This document shows, piece after piece, positions 7,747 through 45,233 of a stretch of 63,496 nt of DNA; within the stretch, counting starts at the first letter, position 1, and each line of letters opens with the position of its first letter. Below the pieces are notes generated by a model. The model saw only the letters and a list, made by a program, of their open reading frames with translations, did not search any database and was not told where the DNA came from. The position numbers and the translations under genes were made by a program. Location: the NCBI GenBank assembly GCA_964360435.1, contig CAYHVQ010000001.1, positions 1 to 63,496 on the forward strand, given 5' to 3'. Origin of the DNA: an uncultured Gammaproteobacteria bacterium (GTDB lineage: Bacteria > Patescibacteriota > Patescibacteriia > CAYHVQ01).

Positions 7747-7815
7747 GATCATCCCGGACTTGATCCGGGATCCACGGCGGATAGATTTCGGATCACCTAT
7801 GGGGGTCGGGATGAC
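7747..7815. repeat. GTCATCC-hairpin family element
   Basis: atcatcccggacttgatccgggatcc hairpin at the left end and ..tcgggatgac inverted terminus at the right end. Confidence 0.6.
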
Positions 7816-11604: not shown

Positions 11605-12855
11605 TTACGAGAGAACCCCCAGTCCGGGGTAAAGCGGGTGAGTCGCAGTCAGAGCCGCAACCGCGGATCGGACTTCATCGAGGACGGTCGGGTGAGTGGG
11701 GTGTTTGAGAGTTTTTCCGATCAGATGTCCGATGGTGGCCATTTCCTCGGCTACAAATCCGCGGGTTGTGAGGGCTGGCGATCCAACTCGAATCCCCGAT
11801 GGATCCATGGGGGACCGCGGGTCATTCGGAATCATATTTTTGTTGCAGGTGATGTTGACCTGGTCGAGCAGTTCTTGTGCTTGTTTGCCGGAGAGTCCCA
11901 GGGGCGTGACATCGGCGAGAACAAGGTGGTTTTCCGTTCCGCCAAATTGAATCCCGAGTCCCTCGTCGCGCAAGGCTTCACACAGTGCGTGGGCATTTTT
12001 TTTGACGGCGGCGGCGTAGGTTTTGAAAGCGGGTTGCAGAGCTTCGCCGAACGCGACGGCCTTTGCCGCAATGTTGTGCTCGTGGGGTCCACCTTGAAAA
12101 CCCGGGAACACGGATCGGTCAATGGTTTTGGCGAGCGCGTTTTTGCATAAAATCATGCCGCCGCGCGGGCCGCGGAGGGTTTTGTGCGTTGTTGTTGTCA
12201 CCACGTCAAACAGCGGCACGGGGTTGTTCATGACCCCGCCGGCAATAAGCCCGGCAATGTGCGCAATGTCCGCCATCGTCAGTGCGCCCACTTCGTCGGC
12301 AATGGTTTTGACCGCCGCGTAATCAATCTCCCGCGAGTAAGCCGAATATCCCACGAGGATGAGTTTGGGGTGATGCGCCTGTGCGAGCGCGCGGATTTCA
12401 TCGTAATCCATGTTGCCATCTGCCGTGGTTTTGTATCGAATAAAATTGTAGAATTTTGCCATGTGCGTCACCGGATGGCCGTGCGTCAGGTGCCCGCCGT
12501 GCGAAAGATCCATGCCCAGAACCGTATCGCCGGGTTCCAACAGCGCGGTGTACACGGCGATGTTCGCCGGAGCGCCGGATAGCGGCTGGACGTTGACGTG
12601 CTGTGCGCCGAAAAGCTGCTTGGCGCGTTCAATGGCAAGTCCTTCGGTCACATCCACGTACTGCGTGCCGCCGTAGTAGCGCTTGCCGATGTATCCTTCG
12701 GAGTATTTGTTTGTCATCACACTTCCCAAGGCCTCAAGAACGGCGCGCGAAACGAAATTTTCCGACGGAATCAATTCCAGTCCGTCCCGCTGGCGAGCGA
12801 GTTCGTGTTCAATGGCGTGGGCGACTTCGGGGTCTTGTTTGGAAAGGATGGACAT
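11605..12855 (-). CDS. glyA: serine hydroxymethyltransferase
   Basis: Start at [11 protein letters not shown]; conserved [17 protein letters not shown]-lysine region. Confidence 0.95.
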
Positions 12856-12960
12856 ATTTGGAAAGATGAGTGCGTGAGGTTCTCCATTATAATACAAATC
12901 TCCCCTATTGCCAAAGTTGCGAGGTTTCAGTAGGATAAAGAGGAATCATTCTTTTTTCCT

Positions 12961-13821
12961 ATGATCAATATAGAACCTTCCTCCGTCAGCACGCGTAGGG
13001 TCGAGACGGCGCCGCAAGAACCGGATGAGCACGGGGAGCCGCAAGAACAGCGCCGCACGGAGCTTCAGGAGTTGATTTTGGAAGACTTGGAAAAGTTTGG
13101 AATTTTGGAACGCGGCGACCACGGAGAGCCGATCATTGATTTTGCGATCTTTGGAGATGTGTTGAGCGCCATTCTTCGTAACCATCGGCTGATGATTAAG
13201 CGATATCCTGAATTTCATCCGGAGGAGCCGCGGAGATTTTTTGCACTCGTCTTTCAAGGCGTGGATGTGGTGTCGAAAGAAGATTTTGAGCGCGCAAAGC
13301 ACGCTGGCGAACCTGCCGTCCCAAAACCGTTGTTTTATGAACCAGAGTCGCAAGACGCGGCGCTTGATCCCGAAGCGATTCGGGAAGCAGAATTCTACAT
13401 TGGACCATGGGAAATTTTTCGGAAGAGACCGGTGGAGAGTCAGTCTCTGCCAACGTTGTCCGGAGAAGATGTGGACTATCGAGAATCTTCTATTGCCGCG
13501 GTGATTTACCATCCAGAGTACGGCCGAGGGTATCGCGATCCCGAGACCGGAAAATTGATGGTATGGTGGCCCTCGCGGAAGGAATTTCATCCGATTTCGG
13601 TGAATTGGTTTGATCGGGAAATGAGCGAAAGTTTTGCTATTGACGCTGCGGAGTTGACGTCCTTGCGTTCTCCGGGAGTTTTTCTTCCGGAGTTTGCGCC
13701 GCATCTCATTATCTCATTGAAACGGGGGTGCTCACGCCGGACGATTTTCGCACAAAGTCCGGTCGCGATGCCATCGAAGGACTTCGGCAATCTCGCCGGA
13801 TCGGCGTGGGAGGAAGGATGA
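12961..13821 (+). CDS. hypothetical protein, probably the N-terminal fragment of a split larger gene
   Basis: Protein-like composition up to ..EFAPHLI. The remaining 35 codons follow the 8-bp duplication and look out of frame. Confidence 0.5.
   Translation: MINIEPSSVSTRRVETAPQEPDEHGEPQEQRRTELQELILEDLEKFGILERGDHGEPIIDFAIFGDVLSAILRNHRLMIKRYPEFHPEEPRRFFALVFQGVDVVSKEDFERAKHAGEPAVPKPLFYEPESQDAALDPEAIREAEFYIGPWEIFRKRPVESQSLPTLSGEDVDYRESSIAAVIYHPEYGRGYRDPETGKLMVWWPSRKEFHPISVNWFDREMSESFAIDAAELTSLRSPGVFLPEFAPHLIISLKRGCSRRTIFAQSPVAMPSKDFGNLAGSAWEEG
13703..13718 (+). repeat. 8-bp tandem duplication (atctcatt x2) causing a frameshift
   Basis: gc-atctcatt-atctcatt-ga is read directly. Removing one copy joins ..EFAPHLI to ETGVLTPDDFRTKSG.. 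in frame. Confidence 0.9.
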
Positions 13822-15476
13822 TGATTGGAAGTGTGGATTACTTTTTTGGCCGCGGTAGGGAAACTCTGGAAGAGTTGGAATATGCGGAAGCCTTTCCCGT
13901 GGGGCCGTCGTTAGGCGTCATGATTCAAGAGGATCCGGAAACCCAGCGTCGGCATCTCACACACACGTTTCAGATGTTTCAGCACGGGGATCCGCGTCTC
14001 AAGCGCCATAGCGTCACGCAAGGCGGCGCGGAAATTTTTCGCGTCAATCAAGAAGACGCCAACCTTCAAGAATATGATTCCCGCACGTTCCATCGAAAAT
14101 TTCCGAAAGAAAGCGGCGAGGCATTTAAGGCGCGCGTCGAGAGCGTAGAAAATTTTGAGTATCTCCTGCGGATTTCGGACCGGATTCGGACGCAGGGTGG
14201 TCCAGATCTTTTGAAACTTGACTACGACCCGTTGACGTTGATTTCTGCTGTCACTCGCGCGATCACTGCCAATCAAGGGGGATTTGTGCGTTTCGTTCGC
14301 GACTTCGGCTTGAACGGACTCCGATCCGTGGTGGGATTTGACGGAGAGGAAAAGGCCACGCGAGCGCTCTACAAATTGGGCGATGAGCTTCCACAGGCCC
14401 TGGCGCATCGGGTTATGGCGCGGATCGGGCGCGTGGCCAATGCTGTGGCATCGGTCATGAAGCAGGCCAGCGAGCTGCTACCGGAAGGGCAAACGATCCA
14501 GTCGGATGAGGCCGGACAGATTCGCGCTCAATTGCTTCGCCGCGGCGGGGATGTTTTGGCTCAACTCACCCAAGAACTTGCCGTCAGCGATGCTTCCGAG
14601 GCGTCGGTAGAAGCGCGGATCGCGGAAGAGATGAAAAAAATCGAGGCGCCGCTTCTGGTGTTGGCGAGCACCTATAAAGTTCTGCATGATGAAGGCCAGC
14701 GGGTGAAGCTCGAAGACTTGAAAGAGGTTGAGGTGGATGTGGAATCCGGCGCGGAGATTTCAAAAAAGGATCGCTTGGCCATGCGAGAGATTGCAGACGA
14801 GAACTGGTCACAGTATCCGCGCCTTCATGCCGCGGTCGTGGAAGGATTTGACGCCGCCCTGCAGAATCCGGCAAACCGATTTTACATCGCGCGGTATCGT
14901 GGGGAGATGTTGGGGTTTGTGCGGTTTGATGATCTGAAAAACGGGAACGTCTATGCCGGTTCGCTCAATATCCGGCCCGAGCTTCGCGGGTCTTCGCTTG
15001 GGGAGACGATTTTGAAAATGGCGATTGTGCAGGAATCCCGAAATCATCCTGTGGAGGCGACGGCATATCCAAAGTTGCCCATTGCCGAGCGGTATATTGG
15101 GGATTTCGGCTTTGTTGTCTCTGGCATGATTCCCAATTTTGAAAAAACCGGCGAGGCGTTTTTTAAGATGGAAATTGATCCGCGCGCAAACCCTTCCTAT
15201 CGTTACCTCAATGCCCCGCTTGCGGAAATCAAAAAAGACGCGCGTCCGCGTCCGCCGGCGCGAATCGAATCAGAACCGTTCGTGTTACAGTTTGACCTTC
15301 ACGGCGATTACAATGCGTTTCTCGAAGCATGTAACCAGATTCTCCGCGACGGAGGTATGGTCATGACCGCGTACCGGCGGGACCGGAAGGAGCCGGGGAT
15401 GGTCTGGGTGGGGTTTGAACCGAAGGCGACGGCGTCTGCAGCATCGTCGGCCGCGGGGAAGAAGGCGCGGCGCTAG
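13818..15476 (+). CDS. hypothetical protein with C-terminal GNAT acetyltransferase-like domain (C-terminal part of the split gene)
   Basis: ATG at 13818 with a GGAGGAAGG SD; the frame is open from GTG at 13728. GNAT-like FYIARYRGEMLGFVRFDD..RGSSLGETILKMAI. Confidence 0.55.
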   Translation: MMIGSVDYFFGRGRETLEELEYAEAFPVGPSLGVMIQEDPETQRRHLTHTFQMFQHGDPRLKRHSVTQGGAEIFRVNQEDANLQEYDSRTFHRKFPKESGEAFKARVESVENFEYLLRISDRIRTQGGPDLLKLDYDPLTLISAVTRAITANQGGFVRFVRDFGLNGLRSVVGFDGEEKATRALYKLGDELPQALAHRVMARIGRVANAVASVMKQASELLPEGQTIQSDEAGQIRAQLLRRGGDVLAQLTQELAVSDASEASVEARIAEEMKKIEAPLLVLASTYKVLHDEGQRVKLEDLKEVEVDVESGAEISKKDRLAMREIADENWSQYPRLHAAVVEGFDAALQNPANRFYIARYRGEMLGFVRFDDLKNGNVYAGSLNIRPELRGSSLGETILKMAIVQESRNHPVEATAYPKLPIAERYIGDFGFVVSGMIPNFEKTGEAFFKMEIDPRANPSYRYLNAPLAEIKKDARPRPPARIESEPFVLQFDLHGDYNAFLEACNQILRDGGMVMTAYRRDRKEPGMVWVGFEPKATASAASSAAGKKARR

Positions 15477-16248
15477 TGGTAGGTTGCGGGCCGGTGGTTT
15501 GTGCGGTGGTCCAGGCGTATTCAAACAACGCGCGGTGCATGATTGCAATCGAGGCGTTATCCACAATGACGCCGATTTTGGTTTTTTCGCTTACCGTGAT
15601 GTAAGAAATTTTTGTGTCATAGATCTGCATGACGGTTTGAAACTTTGGAAACGGGAAATTGATGAATCGGACATTGGTTTCCTCCGGGCCGAGTTTTTTG
15701 AAATACGTTTTGTTGTAGGGGGAGTTGGTCACGAGCACTTTCTTTTTGATATGCATCCGTCGCCGTCTGGCGATATAGTCCACGTTGAGTCTGTGCGCGT
15801 AAGTTTCTACGGCCTCCACATCCGCATAGGAGTAGATTTCCGTTTTCGCGGTGAGCGAGTCTTCGGCGACCCGTCGAATGCCGTCGTCGCCCTCAAAGAA
15901 GAGAACGCCGGGTTTGTCGGAAATGAGGTTGAAGTCGGAAATGAGGGAGGAGAGGACCCCAGAAAGCGCCAACTGGGCGTCTCGGGCCTGTTGTTCGCGT
16001 TTTTCCGAGAGTTCTTGGAGTTTGAGCGGATGTTTGGGAGTAAATTCCGCCACTTTTCCGGATGCTTCCTGCTTTTCGATCAAATCCAATTCCACAAGTT
16101 CATCCAGGGTTTTATAGACCAATCCGCGCTTCAGCGGACTTTTTTGGGCGATTTTTCCAGCCCGAAGCGGCCCATTTTTGAGCAAAATCTCGTAAATCGC
16201 GGCCTGATGGGCAGAAAGCCCCGTTTCTGTCAAAAATTGTTCGTACAT
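15361..16248 (-). CDS. TrmB-family transcriptional regulator
   Basis: N-terminal wHTH LSAHQAAIYEILLKNGPLRAGKIAQKSPLKRGLVYKTLDELVELDLIE. The P/S/T-rich last about 45 aa overlap the convergent upstream gene. Confidence 0.6.
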   Translation of the reverse strand: MYEQFLTETGLSAHQAAIYEILLKNGPLRAGKIAQKSPLKRGLVYKTLDELVELDLIEKQEASGKVAEFTPKHPLKLQELSEKREQQARDAQLALSGVLSSLISDFNLISDKPGVLFFEGDDGIRRVAEDSLTAKTEIYSYADVEAVETYAHRLNVDYIARRRRMHIKKKVLVTNSPYNKTYFKKLGPEETNVRFINFPFPKFQTVMQIYDTKISYITVSEKTKIGVIVDNASIAIMHRALFEYAWTTAQTTGPQPTTSAAPSSPRPTMLQTPSPSVQTPPRPSPAPSGPAGTRS

Positions 16249-16417
16249 GTGTTCGTTGGTTAATGGATCCTGTGGAGCAATTCATGTCATCTCAAATTAT
16301 ATCGCACCTTTTTATAAATGTCAATACTTTATGACAAAATAATATAATAAATATCGCAATAATGAACAAACATGATAGTATTATTATACATATTCTGCCA
16401 ATTCAAGTCACAAGCCC

Positions 16418-16446
16418 TTGACAAAATATGCGACATGATATATACT
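16418..16446 (+). promoter_or_regulatory. near-consensus sigma70-type promoter facing the ORF-poor tract
   Basis: TTGACA (16418-16423), 17-nt spacer, TATACT (16441-16446). Preceded by a very AT-rich stretch. Confidence 0.45.
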
Positions 16447-16819
16447 GCGGCGTTACGATGAAAAACCGAAAAGAAAGCAAGCCCTGATTCCCTTGCACCT
16501 TCCCAATCACCACGCATCCATTCCCGAGAAGAGAGAGCTCGAGAAAGCGGACATCCCTCCTTGTATGAAGGAGCGCGATGCCCCCTTTAAGAGCCGCTCT
16601 CGTCGAGCGGATTGTTTATTTGATTTTATCTCCGACCTCTGGACGGCCAAGGTGTGGCTCACGCGATCGCTCTGCGCTCGCCGAAAGTCCCCGTACCCTA
16701 GAGAGGAACACCCGGAGAAACCCTAAGTTCGAAGATCGCAAAAGGGCTGTGAGGACAGCAGTCGAGAGAGAATCATTGTCCTCAATATCCTTTGCGCTTC
16801 GAGCGTCCTCCCCGGTTAT

Positions 16820-16923
16820 GTCATCCCGGACTCGATCCGGGATCCACACCCGCGGGAGGGGCGGATAAACGGTGGACTTACCGATACTGCCCCATGGTCG
16901 TCCCGAGCTTGTCGAAGGATGAC
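16820..16923. repeat. GTCATCC-hairpin family element
   Basis: gtcatcccggactcgatccgggatcc at the left end, ..gtcgaaggatgac at the right end. Confidence 0.6.
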
Positions 16924-17025
16924 CGTGGAGGCGGCTAGGAAAACAATTCCGTTGACGCTTCACGTGCGCCCGCCTCGGTCTGGAAAAGGACAGAGGCGAG
17001 GCAGGCGAAGAGTCTTCTCAATCAT

Positions 17026-17062
17026 GTCATCCTGAAGTCGCCTAAGGCGACTAAAGGATCTC
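17026..17062. repeat. GTCATCC-hairpin family element (single unit)
   Basis: gtcatcctgaag-tcgcctaaggcga-ctaaaggatctc. Confidence 0.55.
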
Positions 17063-17355
17063 ATGTTCGAGCGACATCGTGATGCCGAAGAGAAAAGGCG
17101 ACTTCGACGAACTTTGAAAATTGAGTTCCCTCGAGAAGAGGAGGAAGAACCCTCGAACTCCTTGAAATCATATTTCGAGTCTCCAGGGTTTTACAGACTC
17201 ATCTTCTCAAGGGAGTCTCTCACGTTAGTGGGAGATTAACTGTCATCCATGAGGATCAATTTCCTTCACCGTCTGCCCGTACGCGAATGCGGGTAAACGG
17301 TGGCGGAAAGTGTTTCAGGAAACCGAATAGAGCTGGCGGATGCAGCCGTCGGCGC

Positions 17356-17574
17356 GAGAGCTCTGCATTAAGCTCTCTGTGGGTTTGAATCCCACCTACG
17401 ACCTAATGTCGTAGAATGTTTCCTCGGAGCATGAAAGAGAAAAGAGGGGAGTCGGGCGGAAACGGCAGGTGTTGGGATGTCTGGTGGTTCAAGTCCACCC
17501 ATGGGCACTGCTCATGACCATTCAGCCTGTCGTGGAAACACGATGACTCTTGAGGGTTCAACTCCCTCCCGTCA
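17356..17574 (+). ncRNA. candidate structured RNA region with three tRNA T-arm-like modules
   Basis: Module 1 (17379-17395): gtggg-tttgaat-cccac, followed by the 7-bp hairpin ctacgac/gtcgtag. Module 2 (17483-17499): ggtgg-ttcaagt-ccacc, followed by the 7-bp hairpin catgggc/gctcatg. Module 3 (17552-17568): gaggg-ttcaact-ccctc, preceded by a GAAA-tetraloop hairpin at 17530-17543. No full cloverleaf can be drawn. Confidence 0.3.
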
Positions 17575-17706
17575 CACGTTTTACGCCCAGTTCTGTGCAC
17601 ACGCACGGGGCTTGGGCGCCGGTGGGGGCAGGATTCGCGCACGCGTTCCTGCCTCCACCAACCTTTCTTTATGGCATGTTGTTCTCTTTAGGGACAGTTC
17701 ATCATT

Positions 17707-17780
17707 GTCATTCCCGCGAATGCGGGAATCCAGATGTCATCCTCGCACAGGCGGGGATCCCCGATCAAGTCGGGGATGAC
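17707..17780. repeat. GTCATCC-hairpin family element (three hairpins)
   Basis: gtcattcccgcgaatgcgggaatcc, gtcatcctcgcacaggcggggatcc, ccgatcaagtcggggatgac. Confidence 0.6.
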
Positions 17781-17894
17781 AAGTCTCTAAACAGGACAAC
17801 CTGCGAAGGCACAACCCCAGAGGAAATGCGTCGCGAGTGCGATGCAAATCCTTGAGGTTGGACTGCCTTCGAGTGCTCGAAGGGAGCACAAAAA

Positions 17895-18158
17895 ATGTCG
17901 CAGATCATTTCTGTTCCCACCTCCCCCGCCGAAGGTCGGCGGGCGGTGTCCTGTTACCGCCGCGCAAAGCGCGCGGCCCAGCGGGACGCCAGCCGTCGCG
18001 AGTCCATCGCGACGGCACAGTGGACGGCGCTCGTGGCCGTCCGGGCGACGCTCGAGACCGCGGCAACGCGGCTCGGGCTCCCCGCCTCCGCCCTCCACTG
18101 GAGGGACGGGGGCGTGTACATCGGGGACGCCCGGGTCCCCGACGCCGTCTACGCTTGA
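17895..18158 (+). CDS. hypothetical protein (87 aa), GC-rich
   Basis: ATG with an AGGGAG SD 8 nt upstream. Strong G/C preference at third codon positions in this frame only. Confidence 0.45.
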   Translation: MSQIISVPTSPAEGRRAVSCYRRAKRAAQRDASRRESIATAQWTALVAVRATLETAATRLGLPASALHWRDGGVYIGDARVPDAVYA

Positions 18159-18302
18159 CGGAAACGGCGCGTGAGGCGTCGCAGGGCAAATCGCCCAACC
18201 TCACTCGACCCGCTTTCGGTCGGCTCGCACGCACGCGAGAAATAGAAGCAAAAGGAAGGCGAGGTCGTGCACAACGTTTTCTCGCCGCCCTTTCTTACGA
18301 CC

Positions 18303-18495
18303 GGTGGCATTCAACCACCCACAGGTCTTGAGAATCGGTTTTTCTTAACCATCACCCCGTCTCACGCGGGCATTCGTGAGAATGCATGAAGAGTGCTTTG
18401 ATAAGGCTTCTTCGTGCGTATCCTTTCGTGATGGTTAGGATACGTGCAGGAAGTCTCATTAAAGTCCTCTTCAGCAAGAAGAGGATTTTTTGTTT
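18303..18495 (+). ncRNA. candidate leader/sRNA element, copy 1
   Basis: ggtgg-cattcaa-ccacc hairpin. AACCA(C/T)CAC boxes at 18312 and 18347. gtgatggtt (18428-18436) can pair with 18347-18355 or be sequestered in the cgtatcc/ggatacg hairpin. Ends in an intrinsic terminator. Similar to 20231-20430. Confidence 0.3.
18465..18495 (+). terminator. intrinsic terminator
   Basis: tcctcttc/gaagagga 8-bp stem, then ttttttgttt. Confidence 0.6.
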
Positions 18496-18520
18496 GAGAT
18501 TTTTCTCACTGTTTTTTTCT

Positions 18521-18545
18521 GTCATGCCGGACTCGATCCGGCATC
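18521..18545. repeat. GTCATCC-hairpin family element (single hairpin)
   Basis: gtcatgccggactcgatccggcatc. Confidence 0.55.
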
Positions 18546-18680
18546 TAGGGTGTAACAAGAAAAAACTGTGAGGGAAACCTCAACGGATAGGGAATGGGTT
18601 GCGGCGCCAAACATGCGTGCCGCAGGTAACTCCAATTTTGGAGCCCAAACCTTGTTCGCGCTTCCTGAAAGGGGAGCAAA

Positions 18681-19097
18681 GTGAATACCAAGCAGGTGGT
18701 GTTGGCGGGGATCGAGACGGCCGCGTTCGAAGTGTGCGAGGGGCTGTGGGCCATTTCGGCTCTGGCCCACCCGTGCATCTTCGAGTCGGGGGGCGAGCTC
18801 CCCCCGAACCCGGCGCTCGCCAAGGTCGTCAAGGCCGAGATGGCCGAGACGACCTTCGGGAAGGTGGGGAAGGCCACGCTCGTGGTGGCCGAGCCCCTGC
18901 CGGACCCTGCCGCCCTGGCCGCTCTGACGAAGTTCCGGGAGGAGTACCCGGACGTGAAGGTCGTGAGCTCCATGCTCTCGATCTCCGCGTTCCGTGGAGC
19001 CCTTCCGGGGCTCGTCGTGGGCCCGGTCGTCACGCCGGAGACCTGCCGTTCGGCGCCGGCCGACAAGCGGTGCTACCGGGATCGCTGGAGCTGCTAG
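18681..19097 (+). CDS. hypothetical protein (138 aa), GC-rich
   Basis: GTG start with an AGGGGAG SD; high GC3; no motif I recognise. Confidence 0.5.
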   Translation: MNTKQVVLAGIETAAFEVCEGLWAISALAHPCIFESGGELPPNPALAKVVKAEMAETTFGKVGKATLVVAEPLPDPAALAALTKFREEYPDVKVVSSMLSISAFRGALPGLVVGPVVTPETCRSAPADKRCYRDRWSC

Positions 19098-19387
19098 GAA
19101 GTTCCACCTCCTGACGCGCCGCACCCTCTCCTCACCCACGGGGTGGTGAGGAACTCGAGAGGTTCATAACCCCACAACAGGTCCCCGCGCTCCTTGGGTC
19201 AGCGCGGGAACACGGCCTTGAAAGACCCACAACCTCTTCGGCGGCTCCTCTGACTCGCACGTCATGAGCCGCCCTTCTTTCCCACTCGCTCTTCTTTACA
19301 AAAGGGCGGGTGAGAAGGATGCTCTTTCGTGGTTGCGTTGATGTTATCCTGGGATATGGAGTTCAGCATGACATACGTTTGCGTCTG

Positions 19388-19447
19388 TTCCTTTTTCCGC
19401 GGCTTTGCAAACGCAAAGGCGCCGAGAAAGGACGGCATCAGTCAAGA
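19388..19447 (+). repeat. 60-bp direct repeat, left copy, flanking the vapBC cassette
   Basis: ttcctttttccgcggctttgcaaacgcaaaggcgccgagaaaggacggcatcagtcaaga. 57/60 identical to 20090-20149. Contains the hairpin ctttgc-aaac-gcaaag. Confidence 0.85.
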
Positions 19448-19468
19448 GGTTCTTGAAGGATGTGTTTA

Positions 19469-19840
19469 CTACGGTTCGTTTCTGACCATCAATCCCCGGA
19501 TGCGACTAAAGTCACGAATGTTTTTGGTGATGATCGGAATGTGGAGCTCCAACGCTGTTGCTGCGATGAGCAGATCCGGACGTTGACTGCGCTTTGTCCA
19601 TGTTCGAGCGAGAAACCCCGCTCTTTTGGCGATTTCCTTCGTGAGCGGAACAATGGAAAGGAATAGGAGTGCGGCATCAATCCGTCGTTCTTCATCTTTT
19701 GACATTCCTGAAAGCGCATAAAGTTCGGCGATGCTGACCGTGGAAATAAAAACATCACAGCGATCGAAGGTATGCGGGTCTCCGATTCCATTGAGAATTT
19801 CAATGACAATGTTGGTGTCCAGTAGTACCGGATCTTTCAT
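19469..19840 (-). CDS. vapC: type II toxin VapC (PIN domain)
   Basis: LLDTNIVIE, ..SIAELY.., LLIAATALE..PIITKNIRDF. 123 aa. Confidence 0.85.
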   Translation of the reverse strand: MKDPVLLDTNIVIEILNGIGDPHTFDRCDVFISTVSIAELYALSGMSKDEERRIDAALLFLSIVPLTKEIAKRAGFLARTWTKRSQRPDLLIAATALELHIPIITKNIRDFSRIRGLMVRNEP

Positions 19841-19843
19841 AAG

Positions 19844-20023
19844 TTATGCCTTGCCCCACAATCGCCTTCGGATTTCCGAAAGATTTCGCGCCGTTCGTTT
19901 CTTTTTTGCCCAAAGTCCATGTAGCTGAAGAAGACCGTTATTGGGGGGATTCCATTCCGAACGAACAACTCCGCGCCACAGGAGAGATTCTTTTGTCAGT
20001 TTTTTCGTAGCGGTTGCATGCAT
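19844..20023 (-). CDS. putative cognate antitoxin (59 aa)
   Basis: Hand-translated ORF MHATATKKLTKESLLWRG..LSEIRRRLWGKA. It stops 3 nt before the vapC ATG. Position and size fit VapB, but no fold was recognised. Confidence 0.4.
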   Translation of the reverse strand: MHATATKKLTKESLLWRGVVRSEWNPPNNGLLQLHGLWAKKKRTARNLSEIRRRLWGKA

Positions 20024-20089
20024 AAGTTAGTGAGTTATAGTGATGTTCGTATCTTATCGCTCTCATCCTGTTTCGTCAAATCTCGCATT

Positions 20090-20149
20090 TTCCTTTTTCT
20101 GCGGCTTTGCAAACGCAAAGGTGCCGAGAAAGGACGGCATCAGCCAAGA
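20090..20149 (+). repeat. 60-bp direct repeat, right copy
   Basis: ttcctttttctgcggctttgcaaacgcaaaggtgccgagaaaggacggcatcagccaaga. Confidence 0.85.
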
Positions 20150-20230
20150 AATTTTTGGAGGAATGGTGCCGCGCTCCCGTCTCTTTCGGTGATCTTCTCT
20201 CGAGCTCGGGAGGAGGTTAGTGTTTGAGAT

Positions 20231-20430
20231 TCAACCACCACAAAATGCCATCACGTGAGGAGCGTGAGGCATGAACCACCACATCGGTCCGCGGAACAAA
20301 AGCCCAAAAGAGATCTTTGATGAGAGCTCTTTGGGGCGTGTCTTTTCTGTGGTGGTTAAGATGCGCTCTCAAAGGTTCTCATCCAAGCCCTCTTTCGGGA
20401 TTCCCCGTGAAGAGGGCTTTTGTTTTTTTT
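20231..20430 (+). ncRNA. candidate leader/sRNA element, copy 2
   Basis: AACCACCACA boxes at 20233 and 20274. tgtggtggtt (20348-20357) is a 10-nt complement. Shares cgtgag..gcatgaa, ctttgat.ag and gtg.tggtta.gat.cg blocks with copy 1. Ends in a terminator. Confidence 0.3.
20385..20430 (+). terminator. intrinsic terminator
   Basis: aagccctctt/aagagggctt 10-bp stem, then tttgtttttttt. Confidence 0.65.
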
Positions 20431-20497
20431 CGTCGAATTTCGGATCATGTTTCTGCAACAGGTTTTGAGTGGTGTCAAATGTCATTTTGTGAACAAT

Positions 20498-20569
20498 GTC
20501 ATCCTGAAGGCGAAGCCTGAAGGATCTCTTGTACAAGAGATCCTTCGTCGCCCTGCTCCTTAGGATGAC
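20498..20569. repeat. GTCATCC-hairpin family element (full palindromic pair)
   Basis: gtcatcctgaaggcgaagcctgaaggatctc-ttgtacaa-gagatccttcgtcgccctgctccttaggatgac. Confidence 0.65.
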
Positions 20570-20662
20570 ATAGAGGTGAAATGTGTTGCAGAGCCGTGAT
20601 CGTCACGTGCTCGTTGTCTTCGGCGCAGGTTGCGCCAACCCACCCCTACTAAGGAGGGTAAT

Positions 20663-21886
20663 GTGGGAATCAAAGTCGCCGTGGGTGGGCCTCCCCACTC
20701 CGGCAAGAGCGTCTTCCTTTCCCTCCTGCGCGGGCTGCTCCCTCGGGAGCAGTTTGCGATGGTGGAGGGGGCTCCGGACGGTGAGGGAATCACCGGCTGG
20801 AGTCACGAGGGGGACGCGGAACTTTCCCGCGCGATCCGGCGCAAGGGGAAGTTCTTGGTGGAGTTCGTGGACTGGGTCGCGCGATCCGTCCGGGGCTCCA
20901 CCGCCCCAGTCACGTTGGTTGACCTCGGCGGAATCCGCTCACCGGAAAATGAGCGGATCCTTCGGGAGTGCACGCACTTCATTGTGCTGGCCTCCCCGAA
21001 GTACGAGGCCGAGGTGGCTCCGTGGATCGACTTCGGCAAGGCGTGCGGGTGCGAACCCCTCGCCGTGTTGGAGTCGGTCCTGGAAGGGGCCGACGACGAG
21101 ATTTTTTCGGCGGGAACCCCGCTTCGCGCGCGGATCACGCGTCTCGATCGGGAAAACCCGCCGGTTGGGTCGCCGACCGCCCGCGCGGTGGCTCAAAGGA
21201 TTCTCGAGCTGGCGGGCAGGGGGAACGCCGAGGACACGGGCGAGGCGGACGCGGGGGCAAACTTCCCGCGCCTTGCCGAGCTCCTCGGTCTCCCGCTCCG
21301 GAATGGCGGTCCGGGGCGGGACTGGATCCCGAGTTGTCTCCCTCAGCTCCTTTCGGTGGTGCTCGCAGAGACTGCGGGTCAGCTGGAAGTGCGGCTGTGG
21401 GGGAACTGCTCGGCCGGGTTCCCCTACCATGCTCTCGCGTGCGCGGTCGCGGCGCGGGTGAGCTTCTACGACCCCAAATTGGCGGGGTACGTGGAGCTCC
21501 CTGCGCTCGCGATCGCGGGCGAGGGCAACAACCTCCTTGCGTGGCGGCGCGAGGAGAGGGATGACCACTCCCTGGTGGAGTACGGCATCCCGGGGCAGGT
21601 GTTCGACGTGCCGAACCTGCCCGTCGTCATTCCGCCCACCGTCCCCACCGACCGCGGTGTGGTGGTGTCCGGCAAAGGCCCCTGGTGGTTGACCGGGGCG
21701 ATTTGTCGGGCGTACCACCGCGCCAGCGTGGCGTGGGTGGCGGTGTTCACGCCGCAGGAGTCCGCGCGCCTTCTTGCCGACGGGCGCGCGTGGGCGGAGC
21801 TTCATCCCGGCTGTGGGCCGGCGGTTGTGGTCGCATCGCGCGACGCCGCTACCCCGGTCGGGACGGTTGTTCCGTTCCGGCTCTAG
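20663..21886 (+). CDS. P-loop NTPase fused to two Csx3-like (Crn3 ring-nuclease family) modules
   Basis: GTG at 20663 follows AAGGAGGG (the track ORF opens at TTG 20630). Walker A is GGPPHSGKS, with APDGEGITGW nearby. The first Csx3-like motif is VSFYDPKLAGYVEL. The second is RGVVVSGKGPWWL..YHRASVAWVAVF..AVVVASRD. For comparison, archaeal Csx3 as I recall it has GVVISGRGPIWL..VAVYDPRLGAVVV. Confidence 0.55.
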   Translation: MGIKVAVGGPPHSGKSVFLSLLRGLLPREQFAMVEGAPDGEGITGWSHEGDAELSRAIRRKGKFLVEFVDWVARSVRGSTAPVTLVDLGGIRSPENERILRECTHFIVLASPKYEAEVAPWIDFGKACGCEPLAVLESVLEGADDEIFSAGTPLRARITRLDRENPPVGSPTARAVAQRILELAGRGNAEDTGEADAGANFPRLAELLGLPLRNGGPGRDWIPSCLPQLLSVVLAETAGQLEVRLWGNCSAGFPYHALACAVAARVSFYDPKLAGYVELPALAIAGEGNNLLAWRREERDDHSLVEYGIPGQVFDVPNLPVVIPPTVPTDRGVVVSGKGPWWLTGAICRAYHRASVAWVAVFTPQESARLLADGRAWAELHPGCGPAVVVASRDAATPVGTVVPFRL

Positions 21887-21910
21887 ATCCCGCATCAAGT
21901 GCGGGATGAC
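21886..21910. repeat. GTCATCC-hairpin family element (inverted orientation)
   Basis: gatcccgcatcaagtgcgggatgac, starting in the stop codon of the upstream gene. Confidence 0.55.
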
Positions 21911-21999
21911 AGATCGGCTGGCCGGCGGTCATCTGACGAGAAAGTCGGCCGCTTCCGCAGGGCATGGGGATCCTCGCGGGAGTTGTACACCAATCCCTC

Positions 22000-22038
22000 G
22001 GCGAAACGACTGCACATCGTTTCGCCCTTCATCTTTTT
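22000..22038 (+). terminator. intrinsic terminator
   Basis: ggcgaaacga/tcgtttcgcc 10-bp stem, then cttcatcttttt. Confidence 0.6.
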
Positions 22039-43001: not shown

Positions 43002-43221
43002 TTATAAAATGATTCACTGTGCCATGATTGCGGCCAGGATCAGCACTCCATCCAAAATACCGGTCATCTTCCTCCATCATCCGAAGTTTTGTCTACGATA
43101 ATAGAGTCATTATATCATAAATGAGTGCGTCCAGCAAATCCCAGCGAGGATGCTCCTACGCCGTGTTGATCGAGATGTCATCATGGATCCTATGTCAGGT
43201 ATGGGATAAGCTTAATCCTTT

Positions 43222-43291
43222 GTCATCTCGGACTCGATCCGGGATCTATGAAATAGATAGATTCCGGACGGCCAAGAGCCTCCGGAATGAC
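43222..43291. repeat. GTCATCC-hairpin family element
   Basis: gtcatctcggactcgatccgggatc ... tccggacggccaagagcctccggaatgac. Confidence 0.6.
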
Positions 43292-45067: not shown

Positions 45068-45149
45068 AAATAGAAGATCGGATAAAATTAAAAGTGATGG
45101 GATCGCTCGATTGAGAGGGATGAATCGAGCGGAAAATAGGGAAGAGATG

Positions 45150-45233
45150 TGCCACGGGAGAGATTTGAACTCTCACCCACGAACGTGGACAGCGCTCTGA
45201 ACGCTGCGTGTCTACCAGTTTCACCACCGTGGC
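45150..45233 (-). tRNA. tRNA-Leu (anticodon CAG)
   Basis: Cloverleaf drawn by hand. Acceptor GCCACGG/CCGTGGC; 3-bp D stem; anticodon stem CAGCG/CGCTG with loop TTCAGAG; long variable arm CCAC/GTGG; T arm GAGAG-TTCAAAT-CTCTC; discriminator A. CCA is not encoded. Confidence 0.9.

What the first reader, a model, noticed from the sequence alone, without database searches (positions are those of the whole stretch)
16418..17894. Promoter-driven 1.4-kb ORF-poor tract carrying three tRNA T-arm-like modules, directly upstream of the island
A near-consensus promoter (TTGACA-17-TATACT) points into about 1.4 kb with no convincing ORF in any frame. Within 220 nt there are three hairpins with 5-bp stems and T-loop-like 7-nt loops (tttgaat, ttcaagt, ttcaact). 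Two of them are immediately followed by a closed 7-bp hairpin, at the position where a tRNA would have its acceptor stem. The third is preceded by a GAAA-tetraloop hairpin. This looks like tRNA mimicry, as described for bacterial Y RNAs (YrlA), which are encoded next to Ro60/VWA and RNA-repair genes. The alternative is a set of tRNA 3'-end remnants left by repeated integrations.
Basis: partly seen in the sequence, partly recalled or inferred. Interest (0 to 1): 0.6.

Follow-up and report, generated by a model that had tools for sequence, protein, structure and literature searches.

The report
Orphan tRNA gene ends, not Y RNA
The three tRNA-like hairpin modules are real, but they are most likely leftover 3' ends of three different tRNA genes inside a 1-kb species-specific insertion in a tiny groundwater (Patescibacteria) genome, not a Y-RNA-like tRNA mimic.

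Summary
The promoter at 16418-16446 matches the consensus at 11 of 12 positions and is conserved in the closest relative. No ORF in the tract hits a protein family. There are three canonical T-arms, and two are directly followed by a closed 7-bp hairpin. That combination occurs nowhere else in the 1.02-Mb genome and in none of five shuffled genomes.

The tract is composite. Structured blocks at 16447-16620 and 16938-17234 are conserved. All three modules lie in a 1.02-kb stretch (17236-18257) that the closest relative lacks.

- Module 2 matches the 3' third of tRNA-Ile(UAU) genes of other genomes of the same class at 33 of 34 bases.
- Module 3 carries a 22/22 exact tRNA-Leu T-arm block.
- Module 1 resembles a serine-type tRNA end.
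- None matches this genome's own tRNAs.

No Ro60 gene, no Rfam match and no homologue in about 700 same-class genome searches were found. Other loci of this class show tRNA genes trailed by orphan copies of their ends.

Best reading (0.55): footprints of rearrangements that target tRNA genes. The 7-bp hairpins are unexplained. A working tRNA mimic is not excluded (about 0.15-0.2).

The parts
16418..16446 (+). Sigma-70-type promoter: TTGACA, 17-nt spacer, TATACT
   Evidence: 11 of 12 matches. Conserved as TTGACA-17-TATAAT in L018.
16447..16625 (+). Conserved structured unit of about 170 nt that ends in a terminator-like hairpin (16594-16610) and a T-rich run. It may be a small RNA or a leader.
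   Evidence: 76% identical to L018. Two compensatory base-pair changes and a conserved terminator hairpin. Terminator scan.
16819..16845 (.). Copy of the GTCATYC...GGATC palindromic repeat family. Absent at this site in L018.
16938..17234 (+). Conserved block of long hairpins. A repeat copy lies at 17024-17060.
   Evidence: 70% identical to L018. 73 predicted pairs, 5 with both sides changed. z is about -6 on both strands.
17236..18257 (.). 1.02-kb stretch absent from the closest relative (insertion or deletion). It holds all three tRNA-like modules.
   Evidence: The L018 alignment jumps from window 17234 to 18266 across only about 6 nt of L018. Present and identical in the same-species assemblies L019, L112 and L113.
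17260..17309 (+). Repeat-like long hairpin. It competes for GTGGCGG (17300-17306), the only possible 5' partner of module 3's acceptor strand.
   Evidence: Pairing probability is 0.98 for this hairpin and about 0 for the 'outer acceptor' helix.
17310..17432 (+). Five-helix domain: a 14-bp closing stem, arm A (17332-17353), arm B (17356-17377), T1 and the capped hairpin. The loops of arms A and B are complementary at 6 of 6 positions.
   Evidence: MFE and helix probabilities of 0.95-1.0. z is -5.7 on + and -4.3 on -.
17356..17414 (+). Module 1: variable-arm-like hairpin, T-arm (17379-17395), acceptor 3' strand CTACGAC plus C, loop TAAT, inverted copy GTCGTAG.
   Evidence: Best tRNA match is this genome's own tRNA-Ser(GGA) end, 25 of 27, which is not above the background similarity between unrelated tRNA ends. 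No tRNA within 3 mismatches in 150 class genomes.
17475..17516 (+). Module 2: copy of a tRNA-Ile(UAU) 3' third (variable loop, T-arm 17483-17499, CATGGGC plus A), then CT, then the inverted copy GCTCATG.
   Evidence: 33/34 identical to tRNA-Ile(UAU) of G307. The five best matches are all tRNA-Ile(UAU). Score 55 against a shuffle maximum of 28.
17529..17576 (+). Module 3: GAAA-capped hairpin resembling a variable arm (17529-17544), then a tRNA-Leu end (CTT, T-arm 17552-17568, CCGTCAC plus A).
   Evidence: CTTGAGGGTTCAACTCCCTCCC is 22/22 identical to tRNA-Leu genes of other class members. The five best matches are all tRNA-Leu.
17584..17675 (+). Two GC-rich hairpins. The second (17621-17659) is followed by a T-rich run and looks like a terminator.
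   Evidence: (probability 1.0).
17706..17781 (.). Two more copies of the GTCATYC repeat family in inverted orientation
17895..18158 (+). GC-rich 87-aa orphan ORF with an AAGGGAG ribosome-binding site. It is uncertain whether this is a real gene.
   Evidence: No Pfam, PHROGs, NCBIfam or PDB match. Found only in the same species. A strain variant carries three 1-nt deletions that shift about 23 codons.

Best explanation
The tract is not one gene. It is a composite non-coding region in a roughly 1-Mb Patescibacteria genome.

An older locus is conserved. It has a promoter, a structured unit of about 170 nt ending in a terminator-like hairpin, and a second hairpin-rich block. This locus is peppered with copies of a palindromic repeat family. 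It is interrupted by a 1.02-kb stretch (17236-18257) that the closest relative lacks.

The three T-arm modules lie in that stretch. They are orphan 3' ends ('tails') of three different tRNA genes: a serine-type or class-II-like tail, a tRNA-Ile(UAU) tail and a tRNA-Leu tail.

The likely mechanism is inferred. DNA rearrangements that target tRNA genes split or copy the 3' part of a tRNA gene and leave displaced or element-borne tails behind. Integrative elements do this, and so do the small tail-copying insertions common behind tRNA genes in this class. Because such tails serve, or recently served, as the working end of a tRNA gene, their T-arm and acceptor geometry is perfect.

Each closed 7-bp hairpin is the tail's acceptor 3' strand paired with an adjoining inverted copy. 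That copy has the sequence of the matching acceptor 5' strand.

If the region is transcribed, the capped 12-bp minihelices would look like tRNA to RNase P and to T-arm enzymes. I regard that as a by-product, not the reason the sequence exists.
For: What is shown directly:
- Module 2 plus its 7 upstream bases is 33/34 identical to positions 42-74 of tRNA-Ile(UAU) of G307. Its five best matches among 83 tRNAs are all tRNA-Ile(UAU). The alignment score is 55 against a shuffle maximum of 28.
- Module 3 shares an exact 22-mer with tRNA-Leu genes of several class members, and its five best matches are all tRNA-Leu. A GAAA-capped hairpin lies 7 nt upstream of its T-arm; in class-II tRNAs the variable arm lies about 2 nt upstream. 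One tRNA-Leu (L108) has a GAAA-capped variable arm.
- All three modules lie in a stretch absent from the closest relative.
- Nothing but the tails and the dispersed repeats of this stretch matches 11 class genomes whose tRNAs have matching tails.
- Two covariance models of the module region find only same-species copies. They were run on 300 and 400 class genomes and on 55 loci.
- Orphan tRNA tails are common in this class. tRNA-Leu genes in L101, L103, L107, L108 and L111 are followed by orphan tRNA tails, several of them 3' halves. L107 has three T-arm tails 64 nt apart. tRNA-Ile(UAU) in L106 is followed by a diverged copy of its 3' half. L098 shows tail, then inverted copy, then direct copy.
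- There is no tRNA, tmRNA or Rfam hit in the tract, and no Ro60 gene.

From published work: integration splits the target tRNA gene, the island restores it, and a displaced fragment marks the island's end (Islander paper, PMC4383910).
Against: - No tail matches this genome's own tRNAs. Its own tRNA-Ile(UAU) tail is different.
- No intact partner tRNA gene lies in direct orientation on the contig.
- No integrase was seen among the ORFs scanned.
- The three tails come from three different tRNA types. Serial integration into one tRNA gene would not give that.
- The abutting 7-nt inverted copies occur nowhere else in the genome or in the other loci scanned. In L098 the inverted copy is separated from the tail by a long hairpin. 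The inverted copies are therefore only loosely explained.
- Every stem is intact, and the + strand folds far better than the - strand (z -5.8 against -2.4). That would also fit selection on an RNA.
- Whether the 1.02 kb was gained here or lost in L018 cannot be decided without an outgroup.
- Module 1's tRNA origin is not above background.
Confidence: 0.55

Rival explanations
1. A working, Ro60-independent tRNA-mimic RNA. The region 17296-17675 is transcribed. Its capped minihelices (T-arm plus a 7-bp acceptor-like stem) are recognised by RNase P, TruB or the CCA-adding enzyme. RNase P cuts at U|G in the hairpin loops, as it does in M. smegmatis YrlA. Alternatively the modules act as decoys for tRNA-binding proteins. 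The tRNA-derived sequence would be the raw material, not a scar.
For: - All three modules have the exact 5 + 7 = 12-bp stack.
- Both capped loops have U at -1 and G at +1.
- The motif is unique in the genome.
- Fold z is -5.8 on the + strand and -2.4 on the - strand, with G-U pairs only on +.
- A terminator-like hairpin follows.
- The sequence is identical in four assemblies.
- There is a precedent: the 7-bp capped stem of M. smegmatis YrlA is cut by RNase P and receives CCA (PMC4201824).
Against: - No homologue anywhere, and the region is absent in the closest relative.
- No covariation data exist.
- No promoter of its own was found, and a terminator-like hairpin lies between the 16418 promoter and the modules.
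- The domain holding modules 2 and 3 is no more stable than shuffles (z -1.15).
- No D-arm, no Ro60 and no Rfam hit.
- Modules 2 and 3 are near-exact copies of real tRNA ends, which a scar explains without any function.
Confidence: 0.18
2. A disrupted tRNA-Leu gene. A 5' fragment (ACGGTGGCGGAA, 17297-17308) and a 3' part (variable-arm-like hairpin, T3, CCGTCAC-A) were once one tRNA-Leu gene. About 200 nt carrying the other two tails split it, and a palindromic repeat overwrote its first bases.
For: - GGTGGCGGAA is the conserved start of tRNA-Leu in this class, at positions 6-15.
- ACGG pairs with CCGT of module 3's acceptor strand.
- GTGGCGG can pair 7/7 with CCGTCAC in the minimum-energy fold of 17296-17590.
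- Module 3 is of tRNA-Leu type.
Against: - The similarity of the 5' segment to tRNAs is not significant (p about 0.6).
- The same 15-mer, GCGGxTAAACGGTGG, recurs at 16861-16875 in a block conserved in L018, which lacks the modules.
- The stretch between IR2 and T3 shows no significant tRNA similarity (p = 0.66).
- The outer helix has a probability of about 0 in its sequence context.
- ARAGORN finds nothing credible even at relaxed thresholds.
Confidence: 0.1
3. A decayed stack of the tRNA-trailing structured elements of Patescibacteria. Each such element is bracketed by an inverted and a direct copy of a tRNA tail around a conserved folded core. Earlier notes of this scan describe them as an undescribed and possibly mobile family. 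In this reading the stack has become detached from its tRNA gene.
For: - I saw the layout 'tail, then inverted copy of the acceptor strand, then direct copy' in L098.
- Domain 17310-17432 is a five-helix element of about 125 nt, a size and shape that the notes mention.
- This overlaps with the best explanation.
Against: - It is not next to any tRNA gene.
- There is no direct-repeat copy of any tail.
- The inverted copy is only 7 nt and abuts the tail.
- The T-arms are complete, whereas the element copies in L098 start inside the T-loop.
- None of this genome's 34 tRNA genes carries such an element.
- No sequence or model similarity to any other locus was found.
- The family itself rests on unchecked AI notes.
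Confidence: 0.12
4. Chance hairpins in an AT/GC-balanced spacer
For: About 16 T-arm-like hairpins per genome are expected by chance.
Against: - The T-arm plus abutting 7-bp hairpin appears in none of five shuffled genomes, against two within 140 nt here.
- The 33/34 and 22/22 matches to real tRNA ends.
Confidence: 0.01

Closest known systems
Displaced tRNA-gene fragments and element-borne tRNA 3' ends at the borders of integrated genomic islands and prophages (attL/attR; Islander database paper PMC4383910; sublocation classes of Williams 2002, recalled from memory)
   Same: Copies of the 3' part of a tRNA gene, from the variable loop or T-arm to the discriminator base. They are in tRNA orientation, lie beside compositionally foreign DNA, and are absent from the closest relative.
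   Different: No intact partner tRNA in direct orientation and no integrase. The three tails come from three different tRNA types. The tails match tRNAs of other genomes and not the host's. Two tails carry an abutting 7-nt inverted copy.
Orphan tRNA 3' halves and tail-copying insertions behind tRNA genes in this Patescibacteria class. Seen here in L098, L101, L103, L106, L107, L108 and L111. Earlier notes of this scan describe them as an undescribed family. The E. coli tRNA-linked repeats (RtT) are the nearest published analogue that I recall.
   Same: Intact T-arm and acceptor tails without a tRNA body, sometimes several in a row 60-100 nt apart. In L098 an inverted copy of the acceptor strand is also present.
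   Different: Those copies trail an intact tRNA gene of the same type and repeat its own tail. Here there is no tRNA gene, the tails are of mixed types, and no shared core was found.
YrlA-type bacterial Y RNAs (tRNA-like module; PMC4201824; bioRxiv 10.1101/312249)
   Same: The order is variable region, T-arm, closed acceptor-like stem. The stem is 7 bp, the length that lets RNase P cut M. smegmatis YrlA.
   Different: No Ro60 gene in the genome, no D-arm, no Ro60-binding helix in the module region, no Rfam match and no conservation. There are three modules in tandem, and at least two are near-exact copies of real tRNA ends.
Two-piece (circularly permuted) tmRNA and permuted tRNA genes
   Same: The acceptor 3' strand lies before the complementary 5' strand, joined by a short loop.
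   Different: The genome has an ordinary one-piece tmRNA elsewhere (C38, 93 bits). There is no tag frame and no complete tRNA body on either side of the junction.

Membership tests
Bacterial Y RNA / YrlA | Encoded beside, and bound by, a Ro60 orthologue (Rsr, TROVE domain) | tested here: not met
   PF05731 gives no match in the 93.7%-complete genome. The controls found it in D. radiodurans and B. thetaiotaomicron.
Bacterial Y RNA / YrlA | tRNA-like module with a T-arm, a closed acceptor-like stem and a D-arm | tested here: inconclusive
   The T-arm and the closed 7-bp stem are present twice. No D-arm-like stem-loop follows either one.
Bacterial Y RNA / YrlA | Ro60-binding helix with the motif GNCGAAN0-1G at the paired RNA ends | tested here: not met
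   The motif is absent from 17236-17700. The five copies found lie at 16680-17108 (four on the + strand, one on the -).
Bacterial Y RNA / YrlA | Match to a curated RNA family model | tested here: not met
   No Rfam 15 family reaches its gathering score. The only tRNA-like matches score 15.8-19.4 bits.
tRNA gene, intact or intron-bearing | Cloverleaf with acceptor stem, D arm, anticodon arm and T arm | tested here: not met
   ARAGORN finds none at default settings or at thresholds relaxed to 80%. With introns allowed it gives only two poor models. Rfam tRNA models stay below threshold.
tmRNA, one-piece or two-piece | tRNA-like domain plus a tag reading frame; one per genome | tested here: not met
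   tmRNA is at C38:69-474, 93 bits. ARAGORN finds no tmRNA in the tract.
Displaced or element-borne tRNA gene 3' fragment (att-type scar) | Near-identity to the 3' part of a real tRNA gene, ending at the discriminator or CCA | tested here: met
   Module 2 is 33/34 identical to tRNA-Ile(UAU). Module 3 is 22/22 identical to a tRNA-Leu block. Module 1 is 25/27 identical to a tRNA-Ser end, which is at background level.
Displaced or element-borne tRNA gene 3' fragment (att-type scar) | An intact copy of the same tRNA gene at the other end of the island, in direct orientation | tested here: not met
   The only tRNAs on the contig are tRNA-Leu(CAG), on the opposite strand at 45149-45233, and tRNA-Ser(GGA) at 80459. 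Neither is placed as a partner. No 13-mer of any tail recurs in a tRNA of the genome.
Displaced or element-borne tRNA gene 3' fragment (att-type scar) | An integrase or recombinase gene next to the site | tested here: inconclusive
   None among the 20 ORFs scanned with Pfam, which lie at 12.9-21.9 kb and 21.9-30.6 kb. The rest of the window was not scanned.
tRNA-trailing inverted/direct-repeat elements of Patescibacteria (earlier notes of this scan) | Sits directly behind an intact tRNA gene and repeats that gene's tail in both orientations | tested here: not met
   There is no tRNA gene here. The inverted copy is only 7 nt and no direct repeat exists. None of the genome's own tRNAs is trailed by such an element.
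tRNA-trailing inverted/direct-repeat elements of Patescibacteria (earlier notes of this scan) | Conserved folded core shared among members | not testable with these tools
   The notes give no sequences. My two models of this region match nothing else. No similarity to the L098 elements is visible by eye.

The most novel reading that the evidence does not exclude
The capped T-arm/acceptor minihelices are working parts of a lineage-specific RNA of about 0.4 kb, built from captured tRNA ends. RNase P would cut at the U|G steps in the two hairpin loops. The pieces would stay base-paired and carry tRNA-like ends, as in two-piece tmRNA or M. smegmatis YrlA. Alternatively the modules would soak up tRNA-binding enzymes or toxins. 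Either way this would be a Ro60-independent tRNA mimic in an ultra-small bacterium.
Probability: 0.15. Interest if true: 0.65.

Novelty: new variant of a known kind. Interest (0 to 1): 0.3.

Why it matters
Mostly this finding is a caution. Perfect T-arm and acceptor geometry in a non-coding tract does not by itself mean tRNA mimicry. tRNA gene ends carried by mobile DNA keep that geometry because they periodically serve as the real end of a tRNA gene.

It also adds a data point on how heavily tRNA genes of Patescibacteria are worked over by DNA rearrangements. Here, tails of three different tRNA types, two of them matching the tRNAs of other families, have ended up together far from any tRNA gene. 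They sit in a locus that also collects palindromic repeats and foreign GC-rich DNA.

If the minority reading were right, the region would be a compact natural example of an RNA assembled from recycled tRNA parts.

Tried and rejected
Known RNA genes:
- tmRNA and RNase P RNA were rejected. Both are found elsewhere in the genome (C38 and C10).
- Rfam was searched three times: the whole window at gathering scores, 15000-19500 at E<=5, and 17236-17700 at E<=10. Only sub-threshold tRNA-like matches came up.
- ARAGORN was run with relaxed thresholds and with introns. Nothing credible.

Homologues and origin:
- Two single-sequence covariance models (R1: 17444-17580; R2: 17308-17434) were searched in 300 and 400 same-class genomes and in 55 loci. 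Only same-species copies were found. The weak R1 hits I checked were ordinary class-II tRNAs or adjacent tRNA genes.
- Synteny was followed through the neighbouring TrmB-like regulator. It gave one relative at 73% identity (L018), while 80 more distant loci share only the regulator's own promoter region.
- VapC as a second anchor gave no further relatives.
- Phage and plasmid collections gave nothing.
- Four exact-pattern scans of viral contigs gave nothing.
- The exact module 2 tail was absent from 185,579 species genomes. A looser pattern hit mostly tRNA-Leu genes of other phyla, which at first misled me about module 2's type.

Similarity to tRNAs outside the tails:
- Outside the T-arms, similarity to this genome's own tRNAs is not significant.
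- The idea that the strand after module 2 is the 5' start of tRNA-Ile is only suggestive (p = 0.64 in an open search).

The 87-aa ORF:
- The excisionase idea found no support in Pfam, PHROGs, NCBIfam or PDB sequences.

Tools that failed:
- The record behind L018 is not held for searching.

Correction:
- My first probability for the GAAA hairpin used coordinates shifted by 2 nt. It was corrected.
Full report
**Setting.** The window is the first 63.5 kb of an 80.7-kb contig. The assembly has 50 contigs, totals 1.02 Mb and is 93.7% complete. ARAGORN finds 34 tRNA genes by default, and more when introns are allowed. tmRNA lies on contig 38 and RNase P RNA on contig 10. The tract is therefore neither of those.

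- The + strand promoter is TTGACA, 17 nt, TATACT at 16418-16446, an 11/12 match.
- The tract has no ORF longer than 115 aa. None hits Pfam, and the two longest tested have no PHROGs hit.
- Three hairpins have every hallmark of a tRNA T-arm: T1 at 17379-17395, T2 at 17483-17499 and T3 at 17552-17568.
- T1 and T2 are each followed, with no gap, by a perfect 7-bp hairpin (17396-17414 and 17500-17516).
- I scanned both strands of the whole genome for a T-arm with a directly abutting closed 7-bp hairpin. Only these two sites came up. Five shuffled genomes gave none, and about 0.5 Mb of other Patescibacteria loci gave none beyond same-species copies.
- The + strand of 17270-17650 folds at z = -5.8 and the - strand at z = -2.4.
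- An independent assembly, L019, is 100% identical over 17236-17700.

**The tract is composite.** The divergently transcribed neighbour is a TrmB-like regulator. Its closest homologue, at 73% identity, lies on a 48.9-kb JGI contig fetched as L018, which is syntenic.
- L018 aligns to window 16417-16610 at 76% identity and to 16938-17234 at 70%. After about 6 nt it continues with 18266-18513 at 81%. Window 17236-18257 therefore has no counterpart in L018. That stretch holds all three modules, two repeat copies, a long hairpin and a GC-rich 87-aa ORF.
- The shared parts look like structured non-coding RNA. The promoter is conserved. A hairpin at 16537-16593 keeps two pairs through changes on both sides. 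A terminator-like hairpin at 16594-16610 with a T-rich run is also conserved. Block 16938-17234 consists of long conserved hairpins, with 5 of 73 pairs changed on both sides.
- With only two sequences this is suggestive and no more.
- Because of the terminator-like hairpin about 150 nt after the promoter, the phrase 'promoter-driven 1.4 kb' is not secure.
- Copies of a GTCATYC...GGATC palindromic repeat sit at different places in the two genomes.

**What the modules are.** I first treated them as a possible structured RNA.
- The minimum-energy fold of 17296-17590 gives a nested picture. A five-helix domain (17310-17432) holds T1 and its capped hairpin. A second domain holds T2 and its capped hairpin. 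T3's acceptor strand, CCGTCAC, pairs with GTGGCGG at 17300-17306.
- In context that outer helix has a probability of about 0, because GTGGCGG is taken up by a repeat-like hairpin with probability 0.98.
- The second domain is no more stable than shuffled sequence (z = -1.15). The first is very stable on both strands (z = -5.7 and -4.3).
- Models built from the two domains found only same-species copies in 300 and 400 genomes of the class and in 55 fetched loci.
- Phage, plasmid and viral collections gave nothing.

**The turning point.** Earlier notes of this scan report that Patescibacteria tRNA genes are often trailed by copies of their own ends. That was a lead, not evidence, so I compared the modules with real tRNA ends from other genomes.
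- *Module 2.* Searching 400 class genomes for its 25-nt tail with up to three mismatches hit eight genomes. In the seven where my script printed the matching gene, it was the 3' end of a tRNA-Ile, five with anticodon UAU and two with GAU. The best, G307, differs at one base. With the seven bases upstream (the variable loop GGATGTC) the match is 33/34. The alignment score is 55 against a maximum of 28 in 2000 shuffles.
- *Module 3.* It shares the exact 22-mer CTTGAGGGTTCAACTCCCTCCC with tRNA-Leu genes of several class members, and its five best matches are all tRNA-Leu. One relative (L108) has a GAAA-capped variable arm there.
- *Module 1.* Its best match is the variable-arm 3' strand plus T-arm of this genome's own tRNA-Ser(GGA), 25/27. 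That score is at the level seen between unrelated tRNA ends. No tRNA within three mismatches was found in 150 genomes.
- None of the tails matches a tRNA of this genome. Its own tRNA-Ile(UAU) has a different end.

**Orphan tails are common in this class.** In the loci I had fetched for other reasons:
- tRNA-Leu genes are followed by orphan tRNA tails, several of them 3' halves, in L101, L103, L107, L108 and L111.
- L107 has three T-arm tails 64 nt apart.
- tRNA-Ile(UAU) in L106 is followed by a diverged copy of its 3' half, with a compensatory change in the T-stem.
- L098 shows a tail, an inverted copy of the acceptor strand and T-arm, and then a direct copy.

The published principle is that integration splits a tRNA gene, the island restores it, and a displaced fragment is left at the island's end (PMC4383910). 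Element-borne tails serve as the working end of a tRNA gene whenever the element is integrated. That explains why orphan tails keep perfect T-arm and acceptor geometry.

**Best explanation.** The modules are orphan tRNA gene ends of three types. They were brought together in a species-specific 1-kb stretch by rearrangements that target tRNA genes.

**Weak points of this explanation.**
- No partner tRNA and no integrase were found.
- The tails are of mixed types.
- The direction of the insertion or deletion is unknown.
- The two abutting 7-nt inverted copies are unexplained.
  - They have the sequence of the matching acceptor 5' strand. For module 2 this is GCTCATG, against GCCCATG at the start of tRNA-Ile.
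  - The following bases, ACCATTCAGC, faintly recall TAGCTCAGC. A head-to-tail junction of two tRNA copies is therefore possible, but the similarity is not significant.
  - tRNA genes only 3 nt apart do occur in this class (L104).

**Y RNA reading.** The topology does match YrlA, which runs variable region, T, closed acceptor-like stem, D. M. smegmatis YrlA, whose stem is 7 bp, is cut by RNase P and receives CCA (PMC4201824). Membership fails on several counts:
- no TROVE/Ro60 gene;
- no D-arm;
- no Ro60-binding motif in the module region;
- no Rfam match;
- no conservation.

The island's VWA protein pairs with a MoxR ATPase and is not Ro60. A working mimic that does not depend on Ro60 remains possible. 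Both capped loops have U at -1 and G at +1, and all three modules have the 12-bp stack. I put this at about 0.15-0.2.

**Verdict.** The region is an unusual arrangement of a known kind of thing, and its interest is modest.

Noticed in passing
window 17706-17734 and 16819-16845; also 7749-7775, 18517-18545 and 43221-43246: A 26-30-nt palindromic repeat (GTCATTCCCGCGAATGCGGGAATCC and variants) recurs in this genome. At 90-100% identity it also occurs many times in 20 of 41 genomes from other families of the class. That is striking conservation for a dispersed repeat.
   Followed up: partly
window 16447-16625: A conserved promoter is followed by a structured unit of about 170 nt that ends in a conserved terminator-like hairpin. 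Two base pairs are kept through changes on both sides compared with L018. This may be a small RNA or a leader with no Rfam match. The - strand folds even better (z -4.2 against -2.7).
   Followed up: partly
window 16938-17234: A block of long hairpins is conserved with L018 at 70% identity. In L018 a repeat copy is inserted in the tip of one hairpin. The function of this block is unknown.
   Followed up: partly
window 16307-16354: The stretch upstream of the TrmB-like regulator gene includes a 12/12 consensus promoter on the - strand at 16324-16296. It is the only part of the intergenic region conserved in about 15 distant loci, so it is probably the regulator's own promoter and operator.
   Followed up: no
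window 17895-18158: An 87-aa GC-rich orphan ORF has a good ribosome-binding site. In two other samples of the same species it carries three separate 1-nt deletions that shift about 23 codons yet keep the frame open (86 aa, 75% identity).
   Followed up: partly
window 45149-45233: ARAGORN calls tRNA-Leu(CAG) here. The whole-window Rfam search at gathering scores listed no match at all, not even tRNA.
   Followed up: no
genome contig C5:20680-20992 (outside the window): tRNA-Leu(UAA) has a 226-nt intervening sequence in the anticodon loop, probably a group I intron. Several tRNA types (Asn, His, most Arg) are not found without introns in this 94%-complete assembly.
   Followed up: no
loci L098, L101, L103, L106, L107, L108, L111 (other Patescibacteria): tRNA genes are followed by orphan copies of their own or other tRNA 3' halves. 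L107 has two extra tRNA-Leu 3' halves 64 nt apart. L098 has a tail, an inverted copy and a direct copy around small hairpins.
   Followed up: partly
window 17340-17345 and 17363-17368: The loops of two adjacent hairpins (AUGCAG and CUGCAU) are perfectly complementary over 6 nt. They could form a kissing interaction or an alternative pairing.
   Followed up: no
window 12000-22000 compared with L112 and L113: Differences between strains (1.3-1.9% overall) are concentrated in 12750-16000, which covers the GNAT-domain gene and the TrmB-like gene. There are none at all in 16545-17948.
   Followed up: no
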